This document shows positions 1 through 16,525 of a DNA stretch of 25,325 bases, in pieces. Origin of the DNA: a virus (lineage: Duplodnaviria; Caudoviricetes); IMG/VR virus record IMGVR_UViG_3300032239_000357, positions 1 to 25,325 of that record; one strand, 5' to 3'. Both the position numbers and the translations under genes were made by a program. Every line of letters starts with the position of its first letter. Within the stretch, counting starts at the first letter, position 1. The notes beneath the pieces are model-generated. The model was not told where the DNA came from, ran no database searches, and saw only the letters and a list, made by a program, of their open reading frames with translations.

Positions 1-1824
1 ATGGCCAATAGCTCGATCAATCTTACGAGTCTAGACTTTGATACTATCAAGTCAAATCTCAAGACATACTTAAAGTCGCAGTCAGTATTTAAGGACTTTG
101 ACTACGAGGGCTCTAACATGAACGTCCTTCTGGACGTCTTGTCGTATAACACGTACCTCAACTCGTTCTACCTCAACATGGTAGCCTCTGAGTCTTTTAT
201 GGATACAGCTCAGATTAGAGACTCTGTCGTCTCTCATGCTAAAGAGATCAACTACCTACCATACTCTTATCAATCAGCCAAGGCGACTGTTAATATAAGC
301 TTTGAGACTAGCGGTATAACTTCTGGTATATTCGAGATTCCAAAAGGTACTCAGTTCACCGGCACCAACGCCAACGGTACTTTTATATTTACAAACGATA
401 CAAATTTAACTGTTACTTCTGGAAACAGCACCTTTGCTTTTGCTAATGTAGACCTCTACGAGGGAACTTACATCAACGAGACATTCATCGTCGATACGTC
501 GATAGAGCTGCAGAAGTTCGTTCTGTCTAATCCGCTGATAGATACAAGAAGCCTTATAGTAACTGTATATGAAGACAACGGCGCTACTTCTTCTGACTTT
601 ATTAGGACTGACAGCTTATACGGCGTAGGTTCTACTTCTAACGTGTACTTTATCCAAGCTACACAGAACGACAAGTATGAACTCATATTCGGCGACGGCG
701 TCTTTGGTAGGTATCCAAAGAATGCATCTACTATATTAGCGACTTATAGAATCACTCAGGGCGCTTCCGGAAGCGGCGTAGGTACTCTGTCTCTCAATAA
801 AGATCTTGGGCCATACAACGGTGGCACTGCTATAGCTACTATTACTACTACAGAAGCATCGACGAACGGATCTGATCGTGAGTCTATGGAGTCTATTAGG
901 TTTAGAGCACCGAGAGCCTATCAGAGTCAAGGAAGAGCAGTCACTACGAGTGACTATAGAGACCTAATACTCAATAACTTTCCAGGTGTCAAGGACGTAA
1001 GTGTCTACGGCGGAGAAGATACAGTAGACGCCGTCGACTACGGTAAGGTCTACATAAGTCCTACTAGCTTTTCTGGCACATCAGTTACTGATCAGACAAA
1101 AGCTGGAATCTTAGACTATCTCTACAATAAGAAGATAATAAACATAAGAAACGAGATAGTAGATCCAGAGTACATCGACATTGAGACTACTATATCCGCA
1201 TCGGTAGACTTTGCTACTACTTCATTGAGTCCATCCGATATTACGAGGCTGATAAAGTCTTCTATATTAACCTATAACGATACGTACTTAAAAGTGTTTG
1301 ATGCTTCTTTTAGATACTCTAAGTTCTTAGCTGCTATCACTTCTTCTGACACCAGTATATACAGTGCCGAAGCGTCGCTTACAATGTATAAGCTTTTGGT
1401 ACCTGAGCTCAATCAATCTATTTCACTATCTACATACTTTAGAAACGCTATAGTACCCGGCACGGTATACAGCTCATATTTTGTATTGAGCGATGGATAT
1501 ACTTACCAGATAGTCGACTATAATCCAAATAATGATACTTTTAGTAGAACAGGATCATACACCGACTATACCGTAGTGAATGACAGTCCAGTACTCTATC
1601 TCAAGCTGATCAGCACAAACAATACTGAATCGTATACTAAGATAGGCACTATCGACTACGATACCGGTAAGATAAGTGTTAAAAATCTAGTAGTCACTAA
1701 TTTCTTGACTTCATCAGGAATCAAGATAAATGCTACACCGGTCGACATGGACATCTTTGGTAAGAGAAACAACATAGTTCAAATAGATACTGGCGCAATA
1801 AACATAAACATCGTTAAGATCTGA
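1..1824 (+). CDS. gp6: Baseplate wedge subunit, T4 gp6-like
   Basis: 607 aa. N-terminus LDFDTIKSNLKTYLKSQ..FKDFDYEGSNMNVLLDVLSYNTY..SFY.NM...ESF.DTAQ.RDSVVSHAK and later FGDGVFGR, ES.ESIRFRAPR.YQSQGRAVT..DY, GKVYIS are hallmark motifs of T4-like gp6/baseplate-J-like proteins. Stop TGA overlaps the next ATG (TGATG). Confidence 0.93.
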   Translation: MANSSINLTSLDFDTIKSNLKTYLKSQSVFKDFDYEGSNMNVLLDVLSYNTYLNSFYLNMVASESFMDTAQIRDSVVSHAKEINYLPYSYQSAKATVNISFETSGITSGIFEIPKGTQFTGTNANGTFIFTNDTNLTVTSGNSTFAFANVDLYEGTYINETFIVDTSIELQKFVLSNPLIDTRSLIVTVYEDNGATSSDFIRTDSLYGVGSTSNVYFIQATQNDKYELIFGDGVFGRYPKNASTILATYRITQGASGSGVGTLSLNKDLGPYNGGTAIATITTTEASTNGSDRESMESIRFRAPRAYQSQGRAVTTSDYRDLILNNFPGVKDVSVYGGEDTVDAVDYGKVYISPTSFSGTSVTDQTKAGILDYLYNKKIINIRNEIVDPEYIDIETTISASVDFATTSLSPSDITRLIKSSILTYNDTYLKVFDASFRYSKFLAAITSSDTSIYSAEASLTMYKLLVPELNQSISLSTYFRNAIVPGTVYSSYFVLSDGYTYQIVDYNPNNDTFSRTGSYTDYTVVNDSPVLYLKLISTNNTESYTKIGTIDYDTGKISVKNLVVTNFLTSSGIKINATPVDMDIFGKRNNIVQIDTGAININIVKI

Positions 1825-3959
1825 TGCAGATTCAAAAGTTTATATCACCACTTATATCTTCTCAGTTTCCAGCTTTTTATAAAGAGTATGGACCGAACTT
1901 CATCGCGTTTATAGAAGCATACTATGAGTGGATGGAACAGTCCGGTCAGAGTATTCTGGAAGCTAGAAACCTCATAGAGTACGGTGACATAGACGATACT
2001 ACAAATGCTTTTGTAAACTACTTCAAGAGCAAGTATATGAAGTCTATACCGTCTTCAATATCTGCAGATAAGAGACTTCTGACTAAGCACATCATAGACC
2101 TCTATAGGGCTAAGGGTACAGACCGCGGATACAAGCTGCTATTCAGACTCTTATTCGATGAAGACATCGACGTCTACAACCCTTCAGAACATATATTTAA
2201 GGCGTCCGATGCTACTTGGTACATACCAAAATATATCGAGGTGTCTTCAAATCCATATCTCTACAGACTTGTCGGAAAGAAGATAATCAGCAGCGGTGGA
2301 GCCTCTGCTATCGTCGATAGTTATTTTAGAAAGATAGTGAATGGTAAGACTGTTAATATATTGTATCTTTCAGGGATTCAGGGTATATTTCATTTCAATG
2401 AGCAGATATACTGTGAAGACTATCCAGAAATAACTTTCGACACCGCGCCTATAGTATTCGGTTCTCTTTCTACTGTCAGTATTACTAACGGCGGCGTAAA
2501 CTTCTCTGTCGGTGATAAGCTTTCTATTAATGGTACAGGCCTTGGAGGTCTAGCAAAGGTTTCTTCAGTCAAGACTGAAAACGGAAAGGTTACGTTTACA
2601 CTAATTGACGGTGGATATGGATTCTCCAGAGACGCTATAGTTACAGTAACAGGAGGTGGCGGAGCTGGAGCTACTTTCCAGATCGGTGACATCACAGACA
2701 GTATAATTCTAGCTCTTAATACCGATGGTATATCAGGAATGGTAAATGCTAACCTTGAGATCTATACTCAGGGTTTTGATTTATCTATCTCTGGAAATAC
2801 CGGTAATTTTACTAACGGCGAGAGAGTTACAGCTTCTGCTAACGTTATTCATATAGACGTGAATACTATTACTGGTCAGGTATTGACAGGTGAGAGTCTT
2901 TCTAATGCTAGTATTGGAGTATCAGGACTGACTGTCTATAAAGCAGACGGCAACATGCTCTATATTACAGGTACTGACTCAAATATAACAAACGCTAATC
3001 TAATTTCAAATATCATTCTATCAAGTAATACTACTGGCTCTGTCGTAAGTCTGAACTATAAATCATCTAAGTTAACAGTCAGCGGCAATGGACTAGTCAA
3101 CTCTGCAGCTAGCAACTCTACTCATCTATTCGTATATAACGGTACTACTAGCGCGGGTTACTATATACCCGGAATGACGATCACGGGCGTTACTTCTGCG
3201 CAGACGGCCGTTGTGAGCAATACTAAGAGACTTACAGACTGGGGCTATTTCGTAGCCGCTTCTGACATACAGAATCTAGATTCTCGCATGGGCGACGTCT
3301 TTAGGGTAATATACAAAGAAGTCGGTAGAATAACTTACTTGTCTAACATCAACCCAGGTATAGGTTACTCTACCGACCCGACGATCGAGATAGTTGAGCC
3401 GTACGTCCATGATCTAAGAATAAATGATGGATTCGGTGGATTCTGGGGCTACGACGCTTCTGTTACAGGTAAAGCCGGTACTGCTTCCGGTATCGTTACC
3501 GCTGTAGAGGTTACTGATTCTGGATTCGGATATGAGTACGACGAGCCGATAACTCTAAGTAAGCTAGAAAACAGCACTTCTGTCGTTTCTGGCGTAGCTA
3601 TAGTGAATGAGCACGGTGAAGGGTCTGGCCGCTGGGAAGACAATAAGAGCTTCCTCAGCGATGAGATGTACATTCAAGACAGTGACTTCTATCAGGCATT
3701 CTCTTACGAGATCAGGTCTACTAAGATGCTTGAGGCTTACGAGAAGATAGTAAAGACTCTAGTTCATCCTACTGGAACTAAGTTGTTCGGAAGATTTATA
3801 AATAGCAATGACATGACTGATGGCGGATCATCTATCTCTGATACTTCTCTGTTCCAGGGAAATGTAGTAGCAATTCCGGTAACAGCAGACATAACTACGG
3901 TACGAGCCAGCGAGCGCAGGACTAAAGCAAGCTCAAATTATACGGAGATCATAATATAA
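1824..3959 (+). CDS. Baseplate wedge protein, gp7-like (wedge initiator)
   Basis: 711 aa. N-terminal SQFPAFYKE..PNFIAFIEAYYEW, LYRAKGT.RGYKLLFRLLF and C-terminal IQDSDFYQAFSYEIRS...YEKIVKTLVHPTGTKLFG match the gp7-like wedge protein of T4-like marine/freshwater phages. Lies directly after gp6. Confidence 0.8.
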   Translation: MQIQKFISPLISSQFPAFYKEYGPNFIAFIEAYYEWMEQSGQSILEARNLIEYGDIDDTTNAFVNYFKSKYMKSIPSSISADKRLLTKHIIDLYRAKGTDRGYKLLFRLLFDEDIDVYNPSEHIFKASDATWYIPKYIEVSSNPYLYRLVGKKIISSGGASAIVDSYFRKIVNGKTVNILYLSGIQGIFHFNEQIYCEDYPEITFDTAPIVFGSLSTVSITNGGVNFSVGDKLSINGTGLGGLAKVSSVKTENGKVTFTLIDGGYGFSRDAIVTVTGGGGAGATFQIGDITDSIILALNTDGISGMVNANLEIYTQGFDLSISGNTGNFTNGERVTASANVIHIDVNTITGQVLTGESLSNASIGVSGLTVYKADGNMLYITGTDSNITNANLISNIILSSNTTGSVVSLNYKSSKLTVSGNGLVNSAASNSTHLFVYNGTTSAGYYIPGMTITGVTSAQTAVVSNTKRLTDWGYFVAASDIQNLDSRMGDVFRVIYKEVGRITYLSNINPGIGYSTDPTIEIVEPYVHDLRINDGFGGFWGYDASVTGKAGTASGIVTAVEVTDSGFGYEYDEPITLSKLENSTSVVSGVAIVNEHGEGSGRWEDNKSFLSDEMYIQDSDFYQAFSYEIRSTKMLEAYEKIVKTLVHPTGTKLFGRFINSNDMTDGGSSISDTSLFQGNVVAIPVTADITTVRASERRTKASSNYTEIII
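3797..3804 (+). promoter_or_regulatory. Possible T4-type late promoter (TATAAATA)
   Basis: Exact TATAAATA within the 3' end of the gp7-like gene, about 155 nt upstream of the ATG at 3960. Could be a chance match inside coding sequence. Confidence 0.4.
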
Positions 3960-5690
3960 ATGGCTAAGCAAGTTATTAATATAGGAGCAGCTCCGAATGA
4001 CGGTACCGGCGACTATATCAGAGATTCGTTCAATAAGGTCAATCAGAACTTCACTGATATCTATACGAACTTCGCGACTACGAACGGTGCGAACTTTACA
4101 GGCCTTCTCTATACAGATAACTCGATAGTAGCTACGGGTCACGGATGGTTTGGCACATCAAATGCATCTGCATACACTGTCGGGTCTAACGTAATCGCTA
4201 ACTCTTCAGGTGTATTTACTACAGGAACAGTCAATGCTGTCTCATACACAGTCGGATCTAACGTAGTCGCTAACTCTTCTGGTATTCATACTACTGGTAT
4301 AGTCAACGCAGCTACTATAGTGACTTCAGGTGCAGCTAGTTTGAGTGGACTCGTAGTAGACGGTCTTGCCAACGTGTCGGCAAACGCATCGGTGAACGGT
4401 ACTCTGTACATAGCAGGTAATACTACATACGTCACTAATACGATGATAGCATCTAAGACCCTGATGCTTAAACTGGCTAACGGCACTGCCAGCGCAGCAG
4501 CTGCTAACGGCGCGGGTATAGTAATAGGCGGCACTGCTAATCTAATATATAATTCTTCTAACAACGCGTGGCAGTCAAACGTCAATATAGTACCTTCAAC
4601 TAATAATTTCGGCCTCGGTAATCCTACTTCTCTCTGGAACGTATATTCAAATAATATCTTTGCAAACTCGCTGAGTACGCCAGTAGGTAGCAATCAAAAT
4701 CTATATGTTAACCCCGATGGTGTTGGCGCTCTCGTCGTCGCCCAGGGAACCGGTGTGAGCATTCTTTCTACGACGCAGGCGACTACTCCTACTTCCGGCG
4801 CGCTCGTAGTGAGCGGTGGAATCGGTGTAGCTAACAACGCATACTTTGGAAACAACGTATATGTTACCGGTACAGTAAATGCAGTATCTTATACTCTGGG
4901 TGGTGGAATATTCGTAGCCAATACTACTTCACTAAGAGCTCAGGGCGCCGTAATTAATTCTACTGGAGCGTACATATCTGGTCTGGTAAACGCTACATCA
5001 GTTAACTCTGCATCATATACCGTTGGTTCTTCTATAACAGTAAACTCAGCGGGTTTCTATACTACGGGGACTGTAAACTCTGCATCGTACACCGTTGGTT
5101 CTGCATTTGTAGCTAACGCATCAGGCATGTATACTACAGGTAAAGCTAACGCTGCATCTTTAACCGTTGGAAATACTACATTTACGGTAGATGCAAACTC
5201 TGCGGGTATTTTTGCAACCGGTACTATAAATGCTGCGTCTCATACTGTTGGCTCTACATTTGTCGCTAACAACACTGTACTAAAAGCCAACGGTGTATCG
5301 GTAAACTCTACCGGCATATATGGTGGTGGGTTAGTAAGTGCGGCCGGCCTGAACATCAGTAGCGTAGTTCTTGCAGACTTTACCGGATTACAAGTAAGTA
5401 CAAACACATTTAATCTTGGGACTGCAGGGTCCGTTGGTAACAGTACCTATAATCAAATGTATACTCGACTTCCAAACGGATTTAAGATGGCATCGGGACA
5501 ACTTTATGTTAACAGCAGCGGCAATACAATAACATTTACTTCACCGTTTTCTTCAATATTCTCAATGCAGGCAACTACTTCCAATACTGTTCAATACGCC
5601 GCTGTTACTGCGTTGTCTACTACATCAGCTACTATTAAGACTACTCAGTCTACTAACATAATAGTAAATTGGTTAGCAATTGGTACGTAA
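3960..5690 (+). CDS. Baseplate-attached fibre protein with T4 gp9/gp10-type N-terminal domain, 24-aa repeat shaft and gp53-like C-terminal tail-fibre tip domain
   Basis: 576 aa. MAKQVINIGAAPNDGTGDYIRDSFNKVNQNFTDIY is the gp9/gp10 N-terminal motif. The middle has repeats of ANSSG(V/I)(F/Y)TTGTVNA.SYTVGS. The C-terminal YTRLPNGFKMASG...ITFTSPFS...VNWLAIG resembles the common phage tail-fibre C-terminal (gp53-like) domain. Confidence 0.75.
   Translation: MAKQVINIGAAPNDGTGDYIRDSFNKVNQNFTDIYTNFATTNGANFTGLLYTDNSIVATGHGWFGTSNASAYTVGSNVIANSSGVFTTGTVNAVSYTVGSNVVANSSGIHTTGIVNAATIVTSGAASLSGLVVDGLANVSANASVNGTLYIAGNTTYVTNTMIASKTLMLKLANGTASAAAANGAGIVIGGTANLIYNSSNNAWQSNVNIVPSTNNFGLGNPTSLWNVYSNNIFANSLSTPVGSNQNLYVNPDGVGALVVAQGTGVSILSTTQATTPTSGALVVSGGIGVANNAYFGNNVYVTGTVNAVSYTLGGGIFVANTTSLRAQGAVINSTGAYISGLVNATSVNSASYTVGSSITVNSAGFYTTGTVNSASYTVGSAFVANASGMYTTGKANAASLTVGNTTFTVDANSAGIFATGTINAASHTVGSTFVANNTVLKANGVSVNSTGIYGGGLVSAAGLNISSVVLADFTGLQVSTNTFNLGTAGSVGNSTYNQMYTRLPNGFKMASGQLYVNSSGNTITFTSPFSSIFSMQATTSNTVQYAAVTALSTTSATIKTTQSTNIIVNWLAIGT
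4173..4312 (+). repeat. 72-nt (24-aa) tandem coding repeat, cluster 1
   Basis: tacactgtcgggtctaacgtaatcgctaactcttcaggt at 4173 versus tacacagtcggatctaacgtagtcgctaactcttctggt at 4245. Confidence 0.85.
5004..5280 (+). repeat. 72-nt (24-aa) tandem coding repeat, cluster 2
   Basis: aactctgcatcatataccgttggttct at 5004 versus aactctgcatcgtacaccgttggttct at 5076, followed by further degenerate copies (NAASLTVG, NAASHTVG). Confidence 0.85.
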
Positions 5691-5713
5691 TTATATTAAA
5701 AGTTGGAAAATAA

Positions 5714-8700
5714 ATGGCTGTACTAACTATTCATCACTTTACTAGCACTGTCGAGTCATTCATCAAGAATGTAGTAGATTCTCGTGAGTCTTACTATATG
5801 TTTGTTGGAAAGCCTGATCCATGGCTGGATGCAGACGGTAACGTCGATGATACAGCAGTCATTGCAGCTAACGGCTCGGTTTATCAGCACGAGTCTACTA
5901 TCTATCAAGACATGACTTTTGGAAAGCTTATAGGAAATACCAACGTCTCTTATCTGATACCGAGATATGATTGGACTAATAATACGGTGTTTGATGCATA
6001 TAGTCAGTTTGATGGAGACCTCTACAGCAAGAGATTCTATGTAGTCAACGATAAGTTTCAGGTATATAAGTGCATCGATAACAACAACGGCGCCAACTCT
6101 ACCGTAAAGCCTTCCCTTACTTCTGAGTCAGGAACGTTCTATACTTCTGACGGCTATACCTGGAAGTACATGTACACTATCCAGAGCAGCTCAAATACTA
6201 ACTTTACTTCTAACACCTTTATTCCAGTCACTATAAATGCCAACGTCGCGGCCAACGCTGTAAACGGTACCATCGACGTCGTAAGAGTAAACAACAGCGG
6301 AACCAACTATAGGACTTACTATAGCGGCTATATCGTAAACTCAGTCAACAACTATACCGTTACTGTAGATTCCGGCGCTTCTTCCTACAGCGGCTTCTAC
6401 GTCGACTCTTCGATGTATCTGAAGTCCGGCTTTGGATCTGGTCAGATAAGAAAGATCAAGCTCTACGACGGCCTTAATAAACTAGTTACTCTCTATGAGC
6501 CGTTCACTACCTATGGTATATTCAACGTAAAGAATGTTACAGGAAGTATAAGTGTAGGCAACATACTAACTCAGAACATCGATAGCATAAACACACTGTA
6601 TAAGCAAGGTATCTTCCAGGTAGGCGATGTCGTACGTCAGTCAGATACCGGCGCTAATGGAACTATTATAGCAGCTAACTCTACAATCTTAAGAGTTATT
6701 AGAGGCAGTGGAGCTACGACTTTTAATACCACATACCCAATAGTTAATATGAATAATAGCGGTACTCTTAAGTCCGGCAGCGTTACAGTCAAGCCGTTCA
6801 CACAGCTGACTATAACTTCAAACACCGGCGCTTTTACTGTCGGCGAGTGGATATATCAGAACAACGGCGCTGCAAATACGGCAAACGGTCTTATATTCAG
6901 CGCAAACTCCAGCACGATAATGGTTGGTCTTGTCTCTGGTTCGTTTGTTAATACATATCAAGTCAAGGGTAACACATCTACTTCAAACGCAGTAGTATCT
7001 ACAGTCGGTAGCAACAATACTGGTAATAGCTACATCTACTCCGTACCGGGTTCTGGTACTACCTTCACTACAGACTTCAACCTTACAAGTAACTACTATA
7101 TTAGGATAGGAAGTAATCCAAATACTGCCGTAGCGAGAATAACTTCTGTTAACAGCACGGTCATTGGCGTATCTCAGCCGTTCACTAGTACCTACGTAGC
7201 AAACGCTTACTACTCTATACCAGACGCTACAGTAGCCAGCGGTATAACACTCATTTCAGCTAACGGCGTAGTCACCAACACAAATCTTAACGGCATTAAA
7301 CTCTTATATTCAAACGCTGCTTCTCTAGCATATAAGTTTATAGTCGGTGAGAGAGTAGACCAAGTCAATTCTTCAGATGTATATCAGGGCGCTAACGCTA
7401 TCGTATCGTTCTCTAACTCTAGTACTCTTATTCTATCTGACGTAAACGGAACATTTACTGGTGGCGGGACACTCTATGTGAGGGGTGAGTCTTCTTTACA
7501 AAAAGCAAATATCGACACTATATCCAGCTACCCGACTATAACTGTAAGTTCTCCTATAGGTACTTTCTATGAGGGTCAGAACATAATAGCTAGAAGCGCT
7601 TCTACCTTTGCTAGCCTTGGAAGCGCGAACGTAGTATCTTTTTATACTATACCTAACCAGCTAACAGAGTACGTGATATCACCTACTGTAGTGATAGACG
7701 GCGACGGTGATTCTACAGCTAAAGCGTATTCAGTAGTCAATGCTACTCCGGGGTCGGGCAACTCTATATCTGACGTAATAGTTATCGATCCAGGCATCGG
7801 CTACTCAGAAGCTAATGTCTACATAGTAGCTAATACATCCTATGGTTCTAACTCAGTACTAGAGCCGGTTATATCTCCGGCGCTAGGACACGGATCAAAT
7901 ACAGTCGCAGAGCTTGGAGCTAGATATGCAGGAATATCCATATCTTTCGATGTAGGTGCTATTGAGACCTATAAGTTTCCTCTATATGGCAAGTATAGAA
8001 GGATAGGCATAATTAAGAACCCACTATACTCCGACGTTACAGTCAACATGGACTCTTTTAGCAGGGCTAAGCTCGTAGTATCAAATACGAGCGGTACTGG
8101 ATTTACTGTCGGTGAGTACGTATATCAACCAAACACCGGAGCTATCGGTCTTATATCTTATAAGTCTGCATATAACATCCAACTCAGTAACGTTACTGGT
8201 ACTTTCTCAGCTAATGGAAAATACGCTAACGGCTCTACTTCAAATGACTATATCGTCGGGCTATCTTCTAATACTACTTCTAATGTCAGTACGTCTAACG
8301 TCATATACTTTTCATTAGCATCTAACGTCGAAGTAGTCTCTGAATCTACAGGCGGAGCGCACGCAAGAATAGTCGCTATAAACAGTAATACCCAAATGGA
8401 CTTGACAAATGTAGACGGTTCTTTCCAAGCAAACGATACTGTCTATGACCCAGTCACAAATGCCTACGCTAACGTCACATCTATCTATACTTCCAACGGT
8501 ACGGTAGACGTATCTACCGTCTTTGGACAGAGGTTTAACCAGAGTCTCAGATTCCCGATGTCGTCGAATACAGCGGCCTTCACTCAGTTCGAGTACGTTA
8601 GACAGCTCAATTCAAACGCAATAGGCAGGGTCATCAGCAACGCTAACGAGTTTGACCTCACCATAACCGGCGCGAACGGATCATTTACTGCCGGAGACGT

Positions 8701-9085
8701 AATAACTAATCAGACTACTGCGGCAAAGGCTATACTATTAACGGCAAATAGTAGCTATCTTAGGGCTACTTCAGCGAACGGTTCTTTCGCGCCTGGCCAG
8801 GTGATTATAAATAATCTAAATGTCGGTGCTACTATTGGTAATTCATATCCGGTATTGGTACTAGATGACGTGGCAGGGACGGGAAATTTCCAGAGCGGAG
8901 CGACATCGGCAAACGTTGTAGGTCAAACCAGCGGTGCTATTGGAAGATTCACCCTTTTGGGACAAGTAATAGTATACCCAGATCTGGTAAGAAATTCCGG
9001 AACTGTCATGTACCTAGAAAACATCGAACCATTTACAATATCGAATACTTCAAAAGAAAACATTCGATTAGTAATTAAGTTTTAG
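5714..9085 (+). CDS. gp8: Baseplate wedge subunit, T4 gp8-like, expanded by inserted beta-rich repeat modules
   Basis: 1123 aa. N-terminal YYMFVGKPDPW, IPRYDWT, FYVVN...VYKCIDNN, DGYTWKYMYTI, then ISP..GHGSN.V.ELGA, YRRIGIIKNP and C-terminal SGTVMYLENIEP.....ENIRLVIKF are gp8 family motifs. Confidence 0.88.
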   Translation: MAVLTIHHFTSTVESFIKNVVDSRESYYMFVGKPDPWLDADGNVDDTAVIAANGSVYQHESTIYQDMTFGKLIGNTNVSYLIPRYDWTNNTVFDAYSQFDGDLYSKRFYVVNDKFQVYKCIDNNNGANSTVKPSLTSESGTFYTSDGYTWKYMYTIQSSSNTNFTSNTFIPVTINANVAANAVNGTIDVVRVNNSGTNYRTYYSGYIVNSVNNYTVTVDSGASSYSGFYVDSSMYLKSGFGSGQIRKIKLYDGLNKLVTLYEPFTTYGIFNVKNVTGSISVGNILTQNIDSINTLYKQGIFQVGDVVRQSDTGANGTIIAANSTILRVIRGSGATTFNTTYPIVNMNNSGTLKSGSVTVKPFTQLTITSNTGAFTVGEWIYQNNGAANTANGLIFSANSSTIMVGLVSGSFVNTYQVKGNTSTSNAVVSTVGSNNTGNSYIYSVPGSGTTFTTDFNLTSNYYIRIGSNPNTAVARITSVNSTVIGVSQPFTSTYVANAYYSIPDATVASGITLISANGVVTNTNLNGIKLLYSNAASLAYKFIVGERVDQVNSSDVYQGANAIVSFSNSSTLILSDVNGTFTGGGTLYVRGESSLQKANIDTISSYPTITVSSPIGTFYEGQNIIARSASTFASLGSANVVSFYTIPNQLTEYVISPTVVIDGDGDSTAKAYSVVNATPGSGNSISDVIVIDPGIGYSEANVYIVANTSYGSNSVLEPVISPALGHGSNTVAELGARYAGISISFDVGAIETYKFPLYGKYRRIGIIKNPLYSDVTVNMDSFSRAKLVVSNTSGTGFTVGEYVYQPNTGAIGLISYKSAYNIQLSNVTGTFSANGKYANGSTSNDYIVGLSSNTTSNVSTSNVIYFSLASNVEVVSESTGGAHARIVAINSNTQMDLTNVDGSFQANDTVYDPVTNAYANVTSIYTSNGTVDVSTVFGQRFNQSLRFPMSSNTAAFTQFEYVRQLNSNAIGRVISNANEFDLTITGANGSFTAGDVITNQTTAAKAILLTANSSYLRATSANGSFAPGQVIINNLNVGATIGNSYPVLVLDDVAGTGNFQSGATSANVVGQTSGAIGRFTLLGQVIVYPDLVRNSGTVMYLENIEPFTISNTSKENIRLVIKF
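8806..8813 (+). promoter_or_regulatory. Possible T4-type late promoter (TATAAATA)
   Basis: Exact TATAAATA within the 3' part of gp8, about 290 nt upstream of the ATG at 9100. Confidence 0.35.
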
Positions 9086-9099
9086 TATAGAGGAAAATA

Positions 9100-12000
9100 A
9101 TGGCGACTCTTCAAACTAACCTCTCTAGCTCCCCATACTTTGATACCTTTAAAGAAACAGGAAACTATTATAGAGTACTCTATAAGCCTTCCGTTGCAGT
9201 ACAGGTACGCGAGCTCAACGAGGTTCAGTCTATATTCCAAGATCAGATCAACAAGCTTGGAAGGAGCGTCTTTAAAGAAGGCTCTATCATAGAAGGCTGT
9301 ACTTTTAGCTTTGATTATAATAGACCGTACGTAAAGGTGAGTGATAACTACAGCAACGGTACGGCGTTTACTATAACAGACTTTCAAGATAAGTTTGTAT
9401 TGAATAGAAACGGTCTCAAGGCTAAGATCGTAGCGACTAGGACTGGATTCTCGTCACAGGATCCAGACACAAATACGCTGTATCTAAAGTATAGAAACTC
9501 AGCGATATATGCTAACGGTATCCCTCAGACTACATTTGATTCCGGCGAAGATCTAAGTATAGTTACTTCAGCTAACGTGCTGATCGGTAATATATCAGTT
9601 CTTACAGTTACAAATGCTATAGGTGTATCTTATGCAGCTAGAGTCACTGACGGCGTAATATTCAAGAAAGGACTGATGCTGAACGTCAAGGGACAGTCAG
9701 TAACAGTACTTCCATACGCTAACAACCCCGACAATCTATCAGTCGGTTTTGAAGCAGTAGAGTCTATCGAGACCGCTTCTTCTAATTCTTCTCTCTATGA
9801 CAACGCGGCCGGATCACCAAACTATCTTGCACCCGGTGCAGACCGTCTTAGAATCGATCCTACTCTTGTAGTCAGGACTACCGACAGCGTCACTAATACC
9901 TCTACGTTCTTCTCTCTAGTTGATTTTAAGGGCGGTAACCCAGTAACTATCAAGCAAGATCCACAGGTAGAGATCTTAACAGACGAGATAGCTCGCCGCA
10001 CTTTTGAGACCAGCGGTGACTTCGTAGTCGCGCCTTTCATTATGACTACTGAGAACCTAGCAAATACTTCTGATCCTCAATATGCTACAAAGTTAAACCT
10101 CGTAGTAAGCAGGGGCCTCGGCTACGTTAAGGGGTACAGGATCGAGTATCTTAACAACAACGTTGCTAAGTTTAGAAAGTCTACAGACTATAAGTCTACT
10201 AGTGGTCAGATAGTCACTGCTAACTATGGAAACTACTTTTATGTAAATGAAGTATCTGGCCAGTTCTTTAGCAACTCATCGATCATATCGGTAGATCTAT
10301 ATAACGCTCCATTGACTTCAGTCTCAAGCGGCGCACTTCTATCTGTAAGTCCATCTGCTACTAATAAGATCGGTACCGGTTACATAAGAGGATTCTCTTA
10401 CGTCGACGGCACGATGGGCACTAAAGATGCTAGATACGCTCTGTATCTATTCAACTACGCCGACAATATGACTGGCGGCTTCAGCCCATCAGACATTAGG
10501 TCTATAGTCTATAACAACGGTGGTATCAAGGGTGTAGCGGACGTAGTTACACAGAAGCAGGGTACTCTAGCTACTAATACAGCCGTGCTTCAGCAGTCTA
10601 ACATCAACGTTATGATGTTCAACTTCGGTCAGAAGGCTATCAAGGCCGACGGCTTTAATAACACGAGCTTCGTCTATAGAAACAAGGTATCGTCTTCTGT
10701 TCTAACCAACGGCAACGCGGCTATAACTATACCGGCTGCAGGCGGTACTGGAACTGAGTCTCTTCCATACGGCGCAGGACAGCTCACTCAGGCGCTCCAA
10801 GAAGAGTTTCATATCGTAGCTACTTCGTCTAGCTATACAGCAAACCTAACAGGCAACGTTGCGGTATCTTCTTCGTCTAACGCAGTCACTGGCGCGTACG
10901 GCACTACATTCTTGACTTCTTTCTATCCAGGTGACTACATCTACGTTCAAGGAGATAGTCGTCTAATTACCGGCATAACCAACAATTCTTACCTGAATGT
11001 TCTTTCTCCGTTTTCTGCATCTAATGCGAACTCTAGGTATGCTAAGTCGTTCCCAGCAGGAGCGGTAGTTCCTATAAGTGATAGGCCAAACAGGTATATC
11101 TATATCAATAGTTCATCTGCTGCTACTATAGTTCTTGGTGAGACGCTCAACAGCTCGTTCAACATCGACGTTACTTATAATACAAGTAGAGCAGCCACAG
11201 TTCCTATAAAGAAGATAGTAAACCAAGACGTATACGTTAAGATCAGGCCTTCGAACAGCGCGGCTGGTCTGAGCGGTCCTTGGTCACTCGGACTGCCGGA
11301 CGTCTATCAGATAAGCAGCGTTTACATATCAAATGATGGATCGACATATTCTAGCTCAGGCACTGATTATAAGCAGTGGTTTACTCTAGACACTGGACAG
11401 AGAGACACATTCTACGGCCTAGCTAAGCTGCAGCAGTCTTCACCGTCAATACCTGGAATACAGATCAATGCTAATACAAGAATAACTGTAAAGTTAAGTC
11501 ACTTCACCTACGATCAGTCGTCTGGTCGTGGCTTCTTTACAGCTAACTCATATCCAATCGACGACGCTAATACTTCAAATACTACCGCTATAACTACGGC
11601 TGAGATCCCTGTATTTAGTTCATCATCAGGTAAGTCATATGATCTAAGGTCAGTGGTAGACTTTAGGCCGTTCGCAACGAATACTGCTACGAGTACTACT
11701 ACACTGGCTTCCGCGACTATCAATCCTTCTTCTACTGTAGCGTTTAGCGGGTCTCCGTATCTACCTGCTCCAGATTCAGACTTCCAGACTGACCTTCAAT
11801 ACTACCTTAGAAGAATAGATAGGGTCGCTATCGACACTACAGGTAATATAGTTATCACTGAAGGTGTACCGGTAGCAGCAAATCCAGGAGCTCCAGTAGA
11901 GCAGAGCGGTACTATGACGCTTGGTCTGGTATTTGTACCACCATATCCTACACTCTCGTCTGTAGAGGGAAAGACTTATAACAGGCCAGAATATACAGTA

Positions 12001-13983
12001 TCAACTCAGCCGATACAGAATCGTAGATATACGATGAAGAACATCGGTGAGATAGACAAGAGAATACAGAACATTGAGTACTACACCTCACTCAACTTAC
12101 TTGAGCAAGCAGCTTCTACTCTTCTAGTAAGAAGTACTTCTACCGGCCAGAACAGGTTCCAGAATGGTATATTCGCAGATCCTTTCAGAGACCATTCATA
12201 TGGTAACTTGGTAGATCCACAGTACTACATCGGAATAGACTCACAGGCTACTGAACTGAGGCCGGCACACGCGCAGTTTAGAAGCACTCTTGAGTATTCC
12301 CCTGCACTGAGTACTAACGTTAGAAAAAGAGGTGGTCTAGTACTTCTTGAACATACGACAAACAATTCTTTCATAACTCAGGGCTTTGCTTCTAAGTATA
12401 GAAACTGCGTAGAAGGAAACATATTCCACTACAACGGCACAGTGGTGTTGAGCCCATTCGGCACTGTCACACCTGACATCAATGCCCCTGTTACAGTATT
12501 GAACAATACGCTAGACCTCACTCAGAACTGGCAGACGCTTGACAAGGCGTGGGGAACTCAGTGGGGCAACTGGACTGAGATACCAGATACTGAAAAGGCT
12601 ACAAAGCTTTTAGTTGCCGGTTCTAAGAAAGAGACGGGAAACTTCGACAGCGACAGCGGTCTAGAAGATAAGACTACTACGCAGACTCTCGAGACTATTA
12701 GTAAACAGTATCAACAGGCCGGCACTCAATTAAATTCTAGTGTGATAGATAAGTCGACATTTAACCTCGGTACTTACGTAACTGACGTATCTATCCAGCC
12801 GTGGCTTAAGTCTTCTGTAATTAAGCTGTACATAAGGGGCATGAAGCCAAAGACCAGGTTGTACGTCTACCTAGACAACAAGCCTATGGCAGTTAACATC
12901 GCCCCTTACGCAAACGCCAGTTTTATAAAAGACGCTAACTATACTTCTACGAGCAGTAGCAGTGGATTCAATGGAGACGCTCTATACAGTGATTCGTACG
13001 GAAGGGCATGGGCTACTATGTATATTCCAGCTCATGATCCAGACGTACCTAATTCTGGATTCCAGGCTAGAGAGCTCCCAGTACTCATCACCGACGTATC
13101 AGACCTAGCGCAGGGTCTAGACGCGTCTACGACTTCTGCTACAGCAGTATTTGTCGGATCTGGTCTTACAGTCCAAAAAGGACAGTCTATCCTTTCAGTA
13201 AAAGACGTTGATCTCTCATACGATACAGTAGTCAGTAAGCCAAAAACAGTCGACTATCTTGGATATACTCAGACTGTCACGATTACAGACCATCCTACAA
13301 GCTCTTCTTGCGGCTGTGGCGGATGCTTTACTTACGACACTATAGTCGAGATGGCAGACGGAAGCACTAAGAAAATAATCGACGTGAAGATCGGAGATCG
13401 CGTATATAATAGAGACAAGACTTCTATAAACACCGTTAAGTTTATAGAGAAGACCGTCGATAATAGGTTTGAGAAGCTCTACAGCCCGACGCGCGCGCTT
13501 AAGCCGTTCGCTACTGTAAATCATCCTATATACATCGACGGTGTTCTATCAAGTGTAGACCCAGAAATGAACTACAACTTCTATCCATGGCTCGGTAGAA
13601 ACAATAAGATAGAAAATGCAGTACTAGAAGACGCTTCTGGCGACATGGTATATAATCTATGGGTAGACGGAGACGGCACGTATACAGTCAACGGCTACGG
13701 CACTACTTCTATAATCGGCGACGGCGCCGCTGTGAGGCAGGCTGTAGAGTATGGATACTTCACTGAGGAAGAGGCTGTAAATATAGTTCTTGGATACTCC
13801 GAATCAGGTCCGGCTACTTCTTATGGTTCTTATATCATTATTAATGCTCTTGCTATGCTTGACTTTAAGCCGCTTACTTGGCTGGCAGCAAAGGCCGTTA
13901 AGCGTGAAGGTAGCGGTAAGAAGATAATAGACACCATCTTTAATGTTACTGGAAGTATAGCTCTTCTATTCAATAGACAATGA
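9100..13983 (+). CDS. VrlC/DUF4815-like large virion structural protein (N-terminal part) with C-terminal Hint domain
   Basis: 1627 aa. SPYFD.F....NYYRVLYKPS.AVQVRELNEVQSIFQDQI, APGADRL, ARRTFETSGDF.V.PF, LDTGQRDTFY, DFRP, YYLRRIDR, NRRYTMKNIG.I.KRI.NIEYYTSL.LLE and NRFQNGIFADPF are typical of VrlC/DUF4815 phage proteins. SD-like AGAGGA upstream. Confidence 0.85.
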   Translation: MATLQTNLSSSPYFDTFKETGNYYRVLYKPSVAVQVRELNEVQSIFQDQINKLGRSVFKEGSIIEGCTFSFDYNRPYVKVSDNYSNGTAFTITDFQDKFVLNRNGLKAKIVATRTGFSSQDPDTNTLYLKYRNSAIYANGIPQTTFDSGEDLSIVTSANVLIGNISVLTVTNAIGVSYAARVTDGVIFKKGLMLNVKGQSVTVLPYANNPDNLSVGFEAVESIETASSNSSLYDNAAGSPNYLAPGADRLRIDPTLVVRTTDSVTNTSTFFSLVDFKGGNPVTIKQDPQVEILTDEIARRTFETSGDFVVAPFIMTTENLANTSDPQYATKLNLVVSRGLGYVKGYRIEYLNNNVAKFRKSTDYKSTSGQIVTANYGNYFYVNEVSGQFFSNSSIISVDLYNAPLTSVSSGALLSVSPSATNKIGTGYIRGFSYVDGTMGTKDARYALYLFNYADNMTGGFSPSDIRSIVYNNGGIKGVADVVTQKQGTLATNTAVLQQSNINVMMFNFGQKAIKADGFNNTSFVYRNKVSSSVLTNGNAAITIPAAGGTGTESLPYGAGQLTQALQEEFHIVATSSSYTANLTGNVAVSSSSNAVTGAYGTTFLTSFYPGDYIYVQGDSRLITGITNNSYLNVLSPFSASNANSRYAKSFPAGAVVPISDRPNRYIYINSSSAATIVLGETLNSSFNIDVTYNTSRAATVPIKKIVNQDVYVKIRPSNSAAGLSGPWSLGLPDVYQISSVYISNDGSTYSSSGTDYKQWFTLDTGQRDTFYGLAKLQQSSPSIPGIQINANTRITVKLSHFTYDQSSGRGFFTANSYPIDDANTSNTTAITTAEIPVFSSSSGKSYDLRSVVDFRPFATNTATSTTTLASATINPSSTVAFSGSPYLPAPDSDFQTDLQYYLRRIDRVAIDTTGNIVITEGVPVAANPGAPVEQSGTMTLGLVFVPPYPTLSSVEGKTYNRPEYTVSTQPIQNRRYTMKNIGEIDKRIQNIEYYTSLNLLEQAASTLLVRSTSTGQNRFQNGIFADPFRDHSYGNLVDPQYYIGIDSQATELRPAHAQFRSTLEYSPALSTNVRKRGGLVLLEHTTNNSFITQGFASKYRNCVEGNIFHYNGTVVLSPFGTVTPDINAPVTVLNNTLDLTQNWQTLDKAWGTQWGNWTEIPDTEKATKLLVAGSKKETGNFDSDSGLEDKTTTQTLETISKQYQQAGTQLNSSVIDKSTFNLGTYVTDVSIQPWLKSSVIKLYIRGMKPKTRLYVYLDNKPMAVNIAPYANASFIKDANYTSTSSSSGFNGDALYSDSYGRAWATMYIPAHDPDVPNSGFQARELPVLITDVSDLAQGLDASTTSATAVFVGSGLTVQKGQSILSVKDVDLSYDTVVSKPKTVDYLGYTQTVTITDHPTSSSCGCGGCFTYDTIVEMADGSTKKIIDVKIGDRVYNRDKTSINTVKFIEKTVDNRFEKLYSPTRALKPFATVNHPIYIDGVLSSVDPEMNYNFYPWLGRNNKIENAVLEDASGDMVYNLWVDGDGTYTVNGYGTTSIIGDGAAVRQAVEYGYFTEEEAVNIVLGYSESGPATSYGSYIIINALAMLDFKPLTWLAAKAVKREGSGKKIIDTIFNVTGSIALLFNRQ
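13324..13710 (+). other. Hint (Hedgehog/intein) autoprocessing domain within the VrlC-like ORF, with no homing endonuclease
   Basis: Block A GG|CFTYDTIVEMADGSTKKIIDVKIGDRV (Cys at 13324-13326, residue 1409), block B TxxH (FATVNHP, 13513-13524), block F VYNLWVDGDGTYTVNG. It ends ..NGYGTTS, with no terminal His-Asn. Confidence 0.88.
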
Positions 13984-13991
13984 AATAAATA
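13984..13991 (+). promoter_or_regulatory. Possible late promoter (AATAAATA, 1 mismatch to TATAAATA)
   Basis: In the 34-nt intergenic gap, followed by SD-like GAGGG and the ATG at 14018. Confidence 0.5.
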
Positions 13992-14017
13992 CATAAAATC
14001 GAGGGATTCAGCTACAA

Positions 14018-16525
14018 ATGAAGCCAATTGGACAGACGTTCTTTGTTAATAAAGATGGCTCCGCACAGTCTAAGTTTACAGTGCCGGGTGTATATATTAC
14101 GAGAGTAGACGTATACTTTAAGTCAATAAGTGATAACGCCGGAGTAAACTTAGAGATAAGGACCACCGACAACGGCGCTCCGACCTCGAATCGTCTTCCG
14201 TTTGCTCTAAAGTCTCTCGATCTAGATGATAAACACGCAAACGGATCACTGATCATAATAGCATCTGACGATGCCAGCAAACCTACTATATTTGAATTCG
14301 ATACTCCGATATTCGTTGAGAACCTCAAGTCCTACGCCATCGTAGTCTACCCAGACGGCGGTAACGACGAGTATAATATATGGACCGCTGAGATAGGTCA
14401 GAACGACGTTAATACCGGCAATCCTATATTCACAAACAACGACACCGGCGATCTATATCTATCGTCGAATGATAGGTCATGGCTTCCTGTTAATAATGAA
14501 GACATGAAGTTTAACATCTACGTCGCTGACTTCACTGCTTCTTCCGGTGAGGCCGTATTCACGACTCCGCACGAAGATTGGATCATCTATAAAGATACTA
14601 TCGGCAAATTCGCCATGAGAGAGAAAGTAGTTTTCTCAAACAACTACTTTAACATAGCGGTCCTTGGAGTTACAGGAATTTCTGGCACTTATAATACCGG
14701 TGATACGGTATGGCAGAACAATGGTTCTGCGAATGTCGTAGGTATTATATACTCAGCCAATACTACTGAGTGGAAGTTGTCAAACACTACCGGGTCATTC
14801 GTAGTCACTAGCGGTAGTAGCCCGAAGCTGTTCAACGCCACTACCGGCGGAAATACTTCAGTGACTGCAGTATCTCAGAATGTATCCGTTACATCGTCTT
14901 CGAACACGGTCTCACTTCCTGACTCCAGCATATTTACAGTCGGTAACGTTCTGTTCTTCACTAAGGCTAATGGAGCGAATGCGCAGGTCGTTCAAGTCAC
15001 TGCCAAGCCTTCTAATACGACGATCAACGTCAATAATGCTATCAACTATACAGACTCGAGCGCGCAGGTCGGAAGAGTCATGACTGACGGAGATCTCTAT
15101 GGCGGATACTCCGGAGCTATAGAATATAATAATCTGCAGTACGGTGTTCTCGACGACATGTCAGCGAACAGCTCGGTCAACCTGTCGAATATGGGCGGTT
15201 ATAAGATAATCGGAACGCAGACCGGTGCAGTAGCTACCCTTGCTGCCGGTTCTTATGATCCAGTCTATAACAGTCTAACACCACACTTCTATACTTCAGA
15301 GCCGGGAAATACTTCTATATCTTGGTACTTCAGAGGCTTTGCTAACAACGCTTCCTATACAGAAGACTCCGATTATACTCCTGTAGTTCCGCACACTACG
15401 AACGAGATGGTCGATATACCAAGAGTGGCGATGTCTAGGAGTAGTGAGTATGCAAGGCTGCCTATCGGTAGAAAGGGAGATCACTCTCTACTACTAAAAG
15501 GAGAGCTTCTCAGCTCTAACAACTTCATATCTCCGGTCATCTCAGACGTCAGAAGTGACATCACCTATACGTTCAACATAGTTCCAAGAGACTATGAGCT
15601 TAATGGATTCCACCTCACTGTCAGCAACGTCGGTACCATGACTACAGGCGATACTATTTCTCAGGCGTCTTATGGTAATACGACTACCGGCATCATCCAA
15701 GAAGCTAACTCGAGCTACATAAGGGTGGCCAACGTCAACGGCCGATTCATAAGCAACACCGCCTTTACAAATATGAACAACTCAAATACCGGCTTCGTAG
15801 AAGTAGCTACGAAGTATACTGAGTCAGCCAACAACGGCTACTTCAAGGTATCTAGGTACATATCAAAGAATATAAAGCTGGCGGATGTTCAAGACTCAGA
15901 AGACATGAGACTGTACATGTCTGCTTACAGGCCGGCAAATACTAACTTCAACGTATACGCTAAGATCCTGAATACTCTAGACCATACGGCATTTACGTCT
16001 AAGGACTGGACACAGCTCAGTGAGATCTCTCCGACTTCTCTACTCAGCAGTAGATCAAACCAGACAGACATGGTAGAGCTCATCTATGGATTCCCGCAGA
16101 GTAAGTATCTCTACACACAGAATACTGTGACTAGCAATACGTCTAATACGGTCTATATCGATTCTACATTCGGTCTGGCAAACAACGACTTTGTATACCT
16201 TCTGCCTAGTAACACCATATCTAGTACGACGAATCAGTTCAACGTCAGGCAGATAGTATACGTTGTAAACGCGACATCGTTCGTAGTAGACCGCCCGCCT
16301 TCGTTCAACACGTCTAACGGCGTGGTAGGTTACATACCTGACATCGACTCTACTCAGTCTGCTTTCTTGTACGATAGAAATAGTAACATTGTCAGATATT
16401 CTACAAACAACGATGTCGTATATGATACCTATATTCAGTTTGCGATTAAGATCATTCCGACAGCTGACTCAACTGCAGTTATACCAAGGGCAGGTGACGT
16501 CAGGGTCTTAGCACTTCAGGTATAA
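14018..16525 (+). CDS. Virion structural protein corresponding to the C-terminal part of VrlC/DUF4815-like proteins
   Basis: 835 aa. It begins MKPIGQTFFV...GVYITRVDVYFKS...LEIRTTDNGAPT...DDASKPTIFEFDTPIFV...YAIVV...YNIWTAEIGQ...G.LYLSSN.RSW.P...EDMKFNIY.ADF, the 'DPLAQTF' region normally found in the C-terminal half of VrlC-like proteins. It ends SRYISK.I.L...FAIKI.......IPR..DVRVLAL. Confidence 0.8.
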   Translation: MKPIGQTFFVNKDGSAQSKFTVPGVYITRVDVYFKSISDNAGVNLEIRTTDNGAPTSNRLPFALKSLDLDDKHANGSLIIIASDDASKPTIFEFDTPIFVENLKSYAIVVYPDGGNDEYNIWTAEIGQNDVNTGNPIFTNNDTGDLYLSSNDRSWLPVNNEDMKFNIYVADFTASSGEAVFTTPHEDWIIYKDTIGKFAMREKVVFSNNYFNIAVLGVTGISGTYNTGDTVWQNNGSANVVGIIYSANTTEWKLSNTTGSFVVTSGSSPKLFNATTGGNTSVTAVSQNVSVTSSSNTVSLPDSSIFTVGNVLFFTKANGANAQVVQVTAKPSNTTINVNNAINYTDSSAQVGRVMTDGDLYGGYSGAIEYNNLQYGVLDDMSANSSVNLSNMGGYKIIGTQTGAVATLAAGSYDPVYNSLTPHFYTSEPGNTSISWYFRGFANNASYTEDSDYTPVVPHTTNEMVDIPRVAMSRSSEYARLPIGRKGDHSLLLKGELLSSNNFISPVISDVRSDITYTFNIVPRDYELNGFHLTVSNVGTMTTGDTISQASYGNTTTGIIQEANSSYIRVANVNGRFISNTAFTNMNNSNTGFVEVATKYTESANNGYFKVSRYISKNIKLADVQDSEDMRLYMSAYRPANTNFNVYAKILNTLDHTAFTSKDWTQLSEISPTSLLSSRSNQTDMVELIYGFPQSKYLYTQNTVTSNTSNTVYIDSTFGLANNDFVYLLPSNTISSTTNQFNVRQIVYVVNATSFVVDRPPSFNTSNGVVGYIPDIDSTQSAFLYDRNSNIVRYSTNNDVVYDTYIQFAIKIIPTADSTAVIPRAGDVRVLALQV

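What the first reader, a model, noticed from the sequence alone, without database searches (positions are those of the whole stretch)
13140..14540. VrlC/DUF4815 protein appears split into two genes exactly at the Hint domain
In VrlC-like proteins as I recall them, the motif A.A.Y.ASG...Q.TI.S.R (here SATAVFVGSGLTVQKGQSILSVK) is followed by a short variable stretch and then DPLAQTF. Here the variable stretch carries the Hint domain and a stop, and the DPLAQTF-equivalent (MKPIGQTFFV) starts a new gene with its own SD and a candidate AATAAATA late promoter. Inference: either the Hint element inserted and the gene fissioned, or Hint-driven thioester chemistry removes the tail and lets the two halves assemble or ligate in trans, rebuilding the ancestral single-chain architecture.
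Basis: partly seen in the sequence, partly recalled or inferred. Interest (0 to 1): 0.7.

Follow-up and report, generated by a model that had tools for sequence, protein, structure and literature searches.

The report
Swappable self-cutting cap on baseplate protein
This phage encodes its giant baseplate protein as two genes, as its nearest relatives do, and the first piece ends in an optional Hedgehog/intein-type domain that likely cuts itself off and is unlikely to stitch the two pieces back together.

Summary
ORF 9100-13983 and ORF 14018-16525 are the two halves of a VrlC/DUF4815 baseplate (tripod-type) protein, and a Hint domain plus a 90-residue helical tail ends the first half. All 49 near relatives with a visible junction are split here, and 34 of them carry no recognisable end module. 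Others carry a BIL-type Hint, an S74 chaperone, a CFI-box or an unnamed helical domain at this spot. The same Hint-plus-helix module ends 94 non-VrlC proteins among 115 clusters. It keeps Cys1 and the Thr-x-x-His motif but lacks the terminal His-Asn, so it likely cleaves only at its N-terminus. The second gene has no intein fragment, and its Lys2 does not track with the Hint. Best reading: an old gene fission at a flexible loop, halves that likely assemble non-covalently, and a mobile, likely self-removing cap built like Hedgehog's Hint plus sterol-binding region. What attacks the thioester is untested; a membrane lipid would be the novel case. This scan noted the same thing earlier on other genomes (three findings). 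My paper searches found no description of it.

The parts
9100..13983 (+). VrlC/DUF4815 N-terminal half with terminal Hint-plus-helix cap, 1627 aa
   Evidence: sequence match to phage 812 ORF65, PDB 9euf, E 2.6e-16
13135..13203 (+). Last conserved VrlC motif before the variable loop (residues 1346-1368)
13204..13323 (+). Variable linker ending in CGCGG; Gly1408 is the predicted new C-terminus after cleavage. A CGC-type motif precedes three different caps in relatives
   Evidence: cleavage site inferred
13324..13710 (+). Hint domain, Cys1409-Ser1537 (module residues 1-129): Cys1, Glu42, Thr64-x-x-His67, YNLWVDGD block, ends Thr-Thr-Ser where inteins have His-Asn
13711..13980 (+). Helical tail of about 90 residues (five predicted helices), amphipathic, basic end, no transmembrane-strength segment
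13984..13991 (+). AATAAATA box, likely T4-type late promoter (consensus TATAAATA recalled)
   Evidence: TAAATA upstream of the second gene in 24 of 35 distinct loci versus 5.5% control
14001..14005 (+). GAGGG, likely ribosome-binding site, 12 nt before the ATG
   Evidence: purine-rich boxes at similar places in relatives
14018..16525 (+). VrlC C-terminal half, 835 aa, starting MKPIGQTF (equivalent of DP[IL]AQTF in fused proteins); no Hint fragment
1..9085 (+). Context: four baseplate wedge genes (gp6-, gp7-, gp9/10- and gp8-like) of a T4-like myovirus

Best explanation
The VrlC baseplate gene is split at this loop in all near relatives examined, and the Hint-plus-helix module is an optional end-cap that likely moved in later and likely cuts itself off, leaving two halves that likely assemble without a covalent link. 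Steps: (1) shown: the split is clade-wide and mostly Hint-free, and the second gene has a conserved promoter-like box; (2) predicted: the break lies in a disordered loop, and the lectin-like 'leg' domain seems to draw strands from both halves, so they would meet by strand complementation; (3) shown: the cap has Cys1 and Thr-x-x-His but no terminal His-Asn, and is C-terminal in nearly every carrier; (4) inferred: Cys1409 attacks the Gly1408 peptide bond, forming a thioester, perhaps relayed to the conserved Ser/Thr129, which is then broken by water, a thiol or a bound adduct, releasing the 219-residue cap; (5) inferred: the basic amphipathic tail parks the precursor on the inner membrane or binds the adduct until cleavage. 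Of the possible nucleophiles I rank water or a small thiol first and a membrane lipid second.
For: Split without Hint: 49 of 49 junction-visible loci split, 34 module-free; 59 of 74 site-ending proteins module-free. Tree of 83 selected rows: a 47-row all-split clade (SH-aLRT 97), with the 10 rows bearing this cap confined to an 18-row subclade (98) and mixed there with other caps or none; across the family the cap needs at least 6 changes. FastTree on 143 rows also puts all split rows on one side (support 0.81). Mobility: VrlC-borne caps are rejected as one clade (p-AU 0.007); 94 of 115 full-length caps sit on non-VrlC proteins, 7 of them gp5-like hubs. Chemistry: Cys1 115 of 115, His67 115 of 115, Thr/Ser64 115 of 115, Glu42 100 of 115, Ser/Thr129 108 of 115, Asn129 4 of 115; 113 of 115 end within 30 residues of the module's end. 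Residue 129 is the aligned end-point for the intein chains. Junction: residues 238-266 of a fused homologue's model have pLDDT under 50, just before its DP motif at 269; matches to the phage 812 tripod (Z 25.5, rmsd 1.4, 178 aligned, model range 2-427) and to the Cwp84 lectin-like domain (Z 13.7, rmsd 3.5, 157 aligned, range 8-426) start before and end after the junction. Three fused proteins carry a His-Asn Hint exactly at the junction (P0093, P0122, L170), which could cut the chain at the same place.
Against: No cleavage was observed; activity rests on conserved residues. The order 'split first, cap later' is parsimony on a selected, midpoint-rooted tree; an ancestral cap that was often lost or swapped is not excluded, and the six near VrlC caps are not rejected as one clade (p-AU 0.28). 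'No recognisable module' means no match to my three profiles and two motifs; other small modules could be missed. The two-chain leg domain is read from alignment end-points only. The tail's charge and amphipathicity were measured without a control set. If the cap is dispensable, its strong conservation is unexplained.
Confidence: 0.7

Rival explanations
1. The cap works like Hedgehog's Hog domain: the helical tail binds a host membrane lipid or other adduct and the Hint transfers the baseplate half onto it, leaving a modified C-terminus. This refines the best explanation at the last step.
For: Same architecture as Hint plus sterol-recognition region (PMC9163320, passages). Glu42 is kept in 100 of 115 and lies near the position of Hedgehog's general base Asp46 (by residue count only). 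Ser/Thr129 maps at or next to Hedgehog Cys143, which forms a branched intermediate (PMC12054796, abstract and Discussion). The last 45 residues are net positive in 110 of 115; the 20 residues before Cys1 are Gly-rich in 64 and hydrophobic in 24 of 115.
Against: No adduct known, no pocket analysis done. The tail has no clear structural match (best helical hits Z under 6). A BIL domain without a helical tail also has Glu at this place (2lwy). Most near relatives do without the cap.
Confidence: 0.2
2. One reading: the thioester is attacked by the N-terminus or Lys2 of the second protein, ligating the halves in trans.
For: The two ends were neighbours in the fused ancestor. Type-A BIL domains can splice without a +1 nucleophile (PMC5874633, passages). 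Two fused homologues read His-Asn-Lys-Asp-Pro at the junction.
Against: 34 of 49 split loci have no module at all. Lys2 is as common without the Hint, and absent in 4 of 9 same-site Hint loci. A third fused homologue has Arg there. The cap sits at three different break points of VrlC and on 94 other proteins. No intein C-fragment in the second gene.
Confidence: 0.05
3. Insertion of the stop-bearing Hint module caused the fission in this lineage; the many module-free relatives lost it later.
For: In all 20 cap-bearing VrlC loci where downstream DNA is visible, the gene breaks right after the cap, at different sites in different lineages. Fused proteins with an internal Hint at the junction exist (3 found) and could be an intermediate.
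Against: Needs many losses: the cap is confined to an 18-row subclade of the 47-row split clade. Splits without any module also occur in other lineages (Cr30, L119, L120, L121, L123).
Confidence: 0.15
4. The cap is not cleaved and stays on the virion as a binding or structural domain.
For: No direct evidence of cleavage. The residue before Cys1 varies widely (Gly 36, Asp 20, Val 18 of 115).
Against: Cys1, His67 and Thr/Ser64 are kept in 115 of 115, which points to catalysis. One alternative at this spot is an S74 chaperone (P0050), a family known to cleave itself off (established knowledge).
Confidence: 0.08

Closest known systems
VrlC/DUF4815 (PF16075, phrog_358); tripod protein of Staphylococcus phage 812 (PDB 9euf, 9eui; PMC13433997)
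   Same: Both halves match the family by profile and by sequence to 9euf ORF65; a fused homologue's junction region matches the tripod at Z 25.5. Same place among baseplate genes.
   Different: Encoded as two genes with a cap on the first; phage 812 and 46 of 57 junction-visible loci of a wider sample are single-chain.
Hedgehog Hog domain (Hint plus sterol- or adduct-recognition region)
   Same: C-terminal position, Gly-Cys junction, Cys1 and Thr-x-x-His, no terminal His-Asn, helical extension; fold match to 1at0 Z 11.4, rmsd 2.6, 112 aligned.
   Different: Ser/Thr instead of Cys at or beside the Cys143 position, Pfam Hint score below cut-off, no detected likeness of the tail to the sterol-recognition region, phage virion proteins instead of secreted eukaryotic proteins, adduct unknown.
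Bacterial intein-like (BIL) domains
   Same: Best fold matches are BIL2 of Tetrahymena (6tmm, Z 14.3, rmsd 2.4, 126 aligned) and the Clostridium BIL 2lwy (Z 12.0). Like BILs it sits in variable regions. True His-Asn BIL-type Hints occur at the same VrlC site, some in tandem before this cap.
   Different: Terminal Asn is replaced in 111 of 115 and a conserved helical tail follows.
Vint domain (PF14623; PDB 8r2c; PMC2362128)
   Same: Longest structural alignment (146 residues, model 1-170, Z 11.3, rmsd 3.6); the nearest named ESM Atlas clusters are Vint (score 0.94).
   Different: Pfam Vint score 18.2 against a cut-off of 27; no VWA or Vwaint domain upstream.
Intramolecular chaperone S74 (PF13884) and CFI-box-CTERM (NF041770)
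   Same: Each occupies the same terminal slot in one near relative (P0050; P0014).
   Different: Unrelated sequences; neither is in this window.

Membership tests
VrlC/DUF4815 tripod protein | PF16075 above the curated cut-off | tested here: met
   181.7 bits versus 30
VrlC/DUF4815 tripod protein | Both halves together cover the full-length family profile, in order | tested here: met
   phrog_358 positions 4-1408 and 1423-2055
VrlC/DUF4815 tripod protein | Located among baseplate wedge genes | tested here: met
VrlC/DUF4815 tripod protein | Forms trimers on the baseplate | not testable with these tools
   shown for phage 812 only (PMC13433997, passages)
Hint superfamily | Hint fold | tested here: met
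   model pLDDT 95.5; 27 chains at Z 8 or more, the listed ones all inteins, BIL, Vint or Hedgehog
Hint superfamily | Cys1 and block-B Thr-x-x-His | tested here: met
   Cys1409, Thr1472, His1475; kept in 115 of 115 (Thr or Ser)
Hint superfamily | Autocatalytic N-S acyl shift | not testable with these tools
   needs biochemistry
Intein, including split intein | Terminal (His-)Asn followed by a C-extein starting with Cys, Ser or Thr | tested here: not met
   module ends Thr-Thr-Ser-Ile, then its own helical tail and a stop
Intein, including split intein | C-terminal intein fragment at the start of the partner gene | tested here: not met
   no positive-scoring domain hit of either Hint profile on the second ORF; the first ORF holds a complete fold
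BIL type A | C-terminal His-Asn | tested here: not met
   Asn in 4 of 115 at position 129; window has Ser
Hog domain (Hedgehog) | Hint followed by a helical recognition region at the C-terminus | tested here: met
   architecture only
Hog domain (Hedgehog) | PF01079 above cut-off | tested here: not met
   20.2-25.1 bits versus 29.7
Hog domain (Hedgehog) | Asp46 and Cys143 catalytic residues | tested here: inconclusive
   Glu42 and Ser129 may be the equivalents; only alignment end-points were seen
Hog domain (Hedgehog) | Transfers a sterol or other adduct | not testable with these tools
   needs mass spectrometry
Vint | PF14623 above cut-off | tested here: not met
   18.2 bits versus 27; 13 of 24 members hit at E 0.01 or better
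Vint | Preceded by VWA and Vwaint domains | tested here: not met
   preceded by DUF4815; no VWA hit

The most novel reading that the evidence does not exclude
Phages carry their own Hedgehog-like autoprocessing module that swaps its helical tail for a host membrane lipid or other adduct at the C-terminus of baseplate, spike and other virion proteins: a self-contained lipidation or membrane-sorting device for virion assembly, used as one of several interchangeable self-removing caps.
Probability: 0.2. Interest if true: 0.8.

Novelty: new variant of a known kind. Interest (0 to 1): 0.45.

Why it matters
The split itself is ordinary once relatives are seen. What remains is a Hint class with Hedgehog-like build that is widespread in uncultured phages (115 full-length clusters at 50% identity among the best 150 hits) and nearly undetected in cellular genomes by a pattern scan (2 short contigs). 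If it ligates an adduct, it would be a prokaryotic-virus counterpart of Hedgehog cholesterolysis and a handle on the origin of Hog domains; its high-confidence model includes the helical region, for which Hedgehog lacked a high-resolution structure as of the 2022 review read here. If it only hydrolyses, it is still a compact self-removing tag. The locus also shows that a tripod-type baseplate protein tolerates being cut at one loop by gene fission and probably also by an internal Hint.

Tried and rejected
Complex prediction of the two halves was not available, so binding of the halves was not modelled. Profile comparison of the cap's tail with the unnamed 'IICT' helical cap gave probability 2.4%: no homology shown. 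The ESM Atlas gave only unnamed clusters under 0.9 for that domain; PHROGs gave nothing. A single-sequence scan of IMG/VR with the second half found no pattern match; alignments were used instead. The cap had no tblastn match among 50,697 cultured phage records at E 0.001, so no cultured carrier of this class is in hand; DLP6 carries a different, His-Asn type at the same site (read from motifs), and its paper does not mention intein or Hint in the main text (PMC5349666, passages). No RNA holder listed. The helical tail had no convincing fold match when searched as part of the whole model; it was not folded alone. Domain boundaries of the phage 812 tripod were not found: the only supplement held was the review file, so the Appendix may bear on the 'leg domain' reading. 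The one-mismatch promoter scan in the window alone was uninformative. Paper searches that found no description of a Hint on VrlC or of this module: DUF4815 + Hint (one listing, the PHROG paper), VrlC + phage + Hint domain (31, none), Hint domain/phage tail/autoprocessing/hedgehog (40), Vint domain/Hint/Tetrahymena (50), Vint/adduct recognition/intein/heme (56), Hint domain/baseplate/phage/virion (79; PMC5259590 passages were irrelevant), DLP6/VrlC (109), CFI-box (122, no occurrence in the listed papers), BIL/bacteriophage/tail/C-terminal cleavage (125). The library lacks most subscription journals. Searches of earlier findings by words and by place gave nothing.
Full report
Setting. The window is a 25 kb virus record holding the baseplate cluster of a T4-like myovirus: gp6-, gp7-, gp9/10- and gp8-like wedge genes, then the two ORFs in question.

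ORF 9100-13983 (1627 aa) and ORF 14018-16525 (835 aa) tile one family profile, phrog_358, at positions 4-1408 and 1423-2055. The second ORF aligns to the C-terminal part of single-chain VrlC proteins of three cultured phages, beginning at their DP[IV][AS]Q motif. Both halves match ORF65 of Staphylococcus phage 812. [quoted passage not shown] The Hint starts at Cys1409 after SSSCGCGG. Its model is confident (pLDDT 95.5): a 129-residue Hint and five helices. The TAAATA box before the second gene is conserved in 24 of 35 distinct loci against 5.5% of random windows; calling it a T4-type late promoter rests on a recalled consensus.

The split does not depend on the Hint. A scan of IMG/VR with an alignment of 29 near N-halves returned the best 74 loci of 569 confirmed. 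In 25 the junction is off the contig. The other 49 are all split at this site: 34 with no recognisable module, 8 with an unnamed helical domain starting IICT, 5 with His-Asn (BIL-type) Hints and 2 with this window's class; after removing near-copies 21, 6, 2 and 2 of 31. Among the 119 listed protein homologues other than the query, 74 end at this site (59 module-free, one of them reclassified by hand; 6 this class, 4 BIL, 3 IICT, 1 CFI-box, 1 S74), 15 end about 200 residues earlier, and 30 are fused. These proteins have no genomic context, so a few may be cut by contig ends. A wider sample (best 80 to a fused query, from 4 of 64 parts of the collection) shows the family at large is mostly fused: of 57 junction-visible loci, 46 fused and 11 split, 8 of those without a module and none with this cap class; 4 of the 11 are contigs already seen in the near set. 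Cultured examples: DLP6 is split at this site with a His-Asn Hint, Cr30 at the earlier site with none.

Order of events. On a tree of the N-half core (83 rows: all module-bearing proteins, every third module-free one, five more picked near the split clade, and 19 loci added; quick IQ-TREE, midpoint root), the window lies in a 47-row clade that is all split (SH-aLRT 97). The ten rows with this cap are confined to an 18-row subclade (98) and are mixed there with IICT, CFI-box and module-free rows; over the whole family the cap needs at least six changes. FastTree on 143 rows agrees on one split clade with weaker support (0.81). A CGC-type motif precedes the cap in 11 of 16 capped proteins of three cap types plus one BIL, and a similar Cys pair is in the last 60 residues of 10 of 59 module-free ones, which suggests caps are swapped just after it. 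Fission first, cap later is the simplest reading; an ancestral cap with many losses is not excluded.

The cap is a mobile family. Of 37 IMG/VR loci found with it, 21 are VrlC genes, broken at three different places, and 16 are not (three of them cut by contig ends). The VrlC-borne caps are rejected as one clade (p-AU 0.007); the six near ones are not (0.28). A profile search of 1.84 billion cluster representatives gave 139 hits at E 1e-30 or better; of the best 150, 115 hold the full module, and 113 of these end within 30 residues of it (this set includes clusters of my own seed sequences). Only 21 are VrlC-like. Of the other 94, 7 are gp5-like hubs, 7 more match tail or virion families, and 67 match no PHROG at E 1e-5, so 'virion protein' is shown for only part of them. 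A pattern scan of 185,579 prokaryote genomes found two short MAG contigs.

Chemistry. Cys1 and His67 are kept in 115 of 115, Thr or Ser64 in 115, Glu42 in 100. Positions 128-129, where structural alignments to inteins end, are His in 34 and Asn in 4; position 129 is Ser or Thr in 108. The residues for the first acyl shift are present and those for Asn cyclisation are not, so N-terminal cleavage is the expected reaction (inference). This is the Hedgehog pattern: Cys1 and TxxH shared with inteins, a general base Asp46, a second nucleophile Cys143, and a helical region that binds cholesterol and the membrane (PMC9163320, passages; PMC12054796, abstract and Discussion). Glu42 and Ser129 may be the equivalents; I saw only alignment end-points, and the register at 129 is uncertain by one residue. 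The fold is closest to BIL2 of Tetrahymena (Z 14.3), with Hedgehog (11.4) and Vint (11.3, longest alignment) tied behind; ESM Atlas neighbours are unnamed phage clusters and Vint (Vint as defined in PMC2362128, passages). No curated cut-off is met. The tail is amphipathic without a transmembrane-strength segment in 24 of 24 and ends net positive in 110 of 115; no control set was run.

No sign of trans-ligation. The second ORF has no Hint fragment. Lys before PI[AG]Q is in 16 of 21 module-free loci and missing in 4 of 9 same-site cap loci. Three fused proteins (2 of 30, none of 53, 1 of 46) carry a His-Asn Hint right before [KR]DP[IL][AS]Q. BIL-A domains are described as prone to C-terminal cleavage and sometimes to splicing (PMC5874633, passages), so these may be cut at the same place after translation, or spliced.

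Where the cut falls. A model of the junction region of a natural fused homologue (L154, 456 aa, pLDDT 75.6, pTM 0.55) is disordered at residues 238-266, just before its DP motif, and at 76-108, the earlier break site. It matches the 812 tripod at Z 25.5 (rmsd 1.4, 178 aligned, range 2-427) and Cwp84 at Z 13.7 (157 aligned, range 8-426). The ranges suggest that the leg domain takes strands from before and after the junction, so the halves would lock by strand complementation.

Earlier notes. Three findings of this scan on other genomes reach the same reading; I had stated mine before opening them. The word 'cap' and the lead that the cut lies within a domain come from them. They are not counted as evidence.

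Verdict. The split is ordinary for this clade. The Hint is an optional, mobile end module of a class for which my ten paper searches found no description. It most likely removes itself (0.7 for the whole account); adduct transfer (0.2) is the reading worth testing; ligation of the halves is unlikely (0.05).

Noticed in passing
P0093, P0122, L170 (fused VrlC): His-Asn Hint domains, one or two in tandem, lie in frame exactly at the junction of single-chain VrlC proteins, followed by Lys or Arg and the DP[IL][AS]Q motif: a possible protein-level version of the gene split.
   Followed up: partly
L044:10270-10761, L045, L046, L048, L078, L098, L099, L101, L180; P0007, P0064, P0079: An unnamed all-helical domain of about 165 residues starting [CST]IICT occupies the same terminal slot after a CGC motif. 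No PHROG or NCBIfam family; unnamed Atlas clusters only.
   Followed up: partly
L006, L022, L024, L078, L098, L099, L101: VrlC in three genes: a second break about 200 residues upstream, with the cap on the short middle gene.
   Followed up: partly
L034:6206-7696, L035:718-2208; P0200, P0209, P0210, P0222, P0234, P0244, P0274: Short gp5-like baseplate hub/spike proteins end in the same Hint-plus-helix cap, at what would be the spike tip.
   Followed up: partly
L019:1-2361, L026:2348-7681, L029, L031, L103-L105; P0011, P0177, P0178: Tandem arrays of two to several His-Asn Hint domains at protein ends, often closed by one Hint-plus-helix cap.
   Followed up: no
P0190, P0214, P0227, P0288, P0293, P0294 and others (24 of 115): In many carriers a hydrophobic stretch lies directly before Cys1, so cleavage would leave a hydrophobic C-terminus.
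   Followed up: no
L005:2458-7932 (Stenotrophomonas phage DLP6, KU682439.2): A cultured phage with VrlC split at the same site and a terminal Gly-rich linker plus His-Asn Hint, not shown in the record's feature table; a ready test system.
   Followed up: partly
window 21094-25325: An ORF of at least 1410 aa running off the window, rich in Gly, Ser and Thr, with a repeated block (FPAAKTVY...NFPLPQDTIIIDNS twice); fibre-like.
   Followed up: no
window 20263-20270: An exact TATAAATA upstream of the 180-aa ORF at 20299, a second likely late promoter.
   Followed up: no
window 16750-19923 and 19927-20250: A 1057-aa low-complexity fibre-like ORF followed by an LtfC-like 107-aa ORF (tail-fibre assembly family hits).
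   Followed up: no
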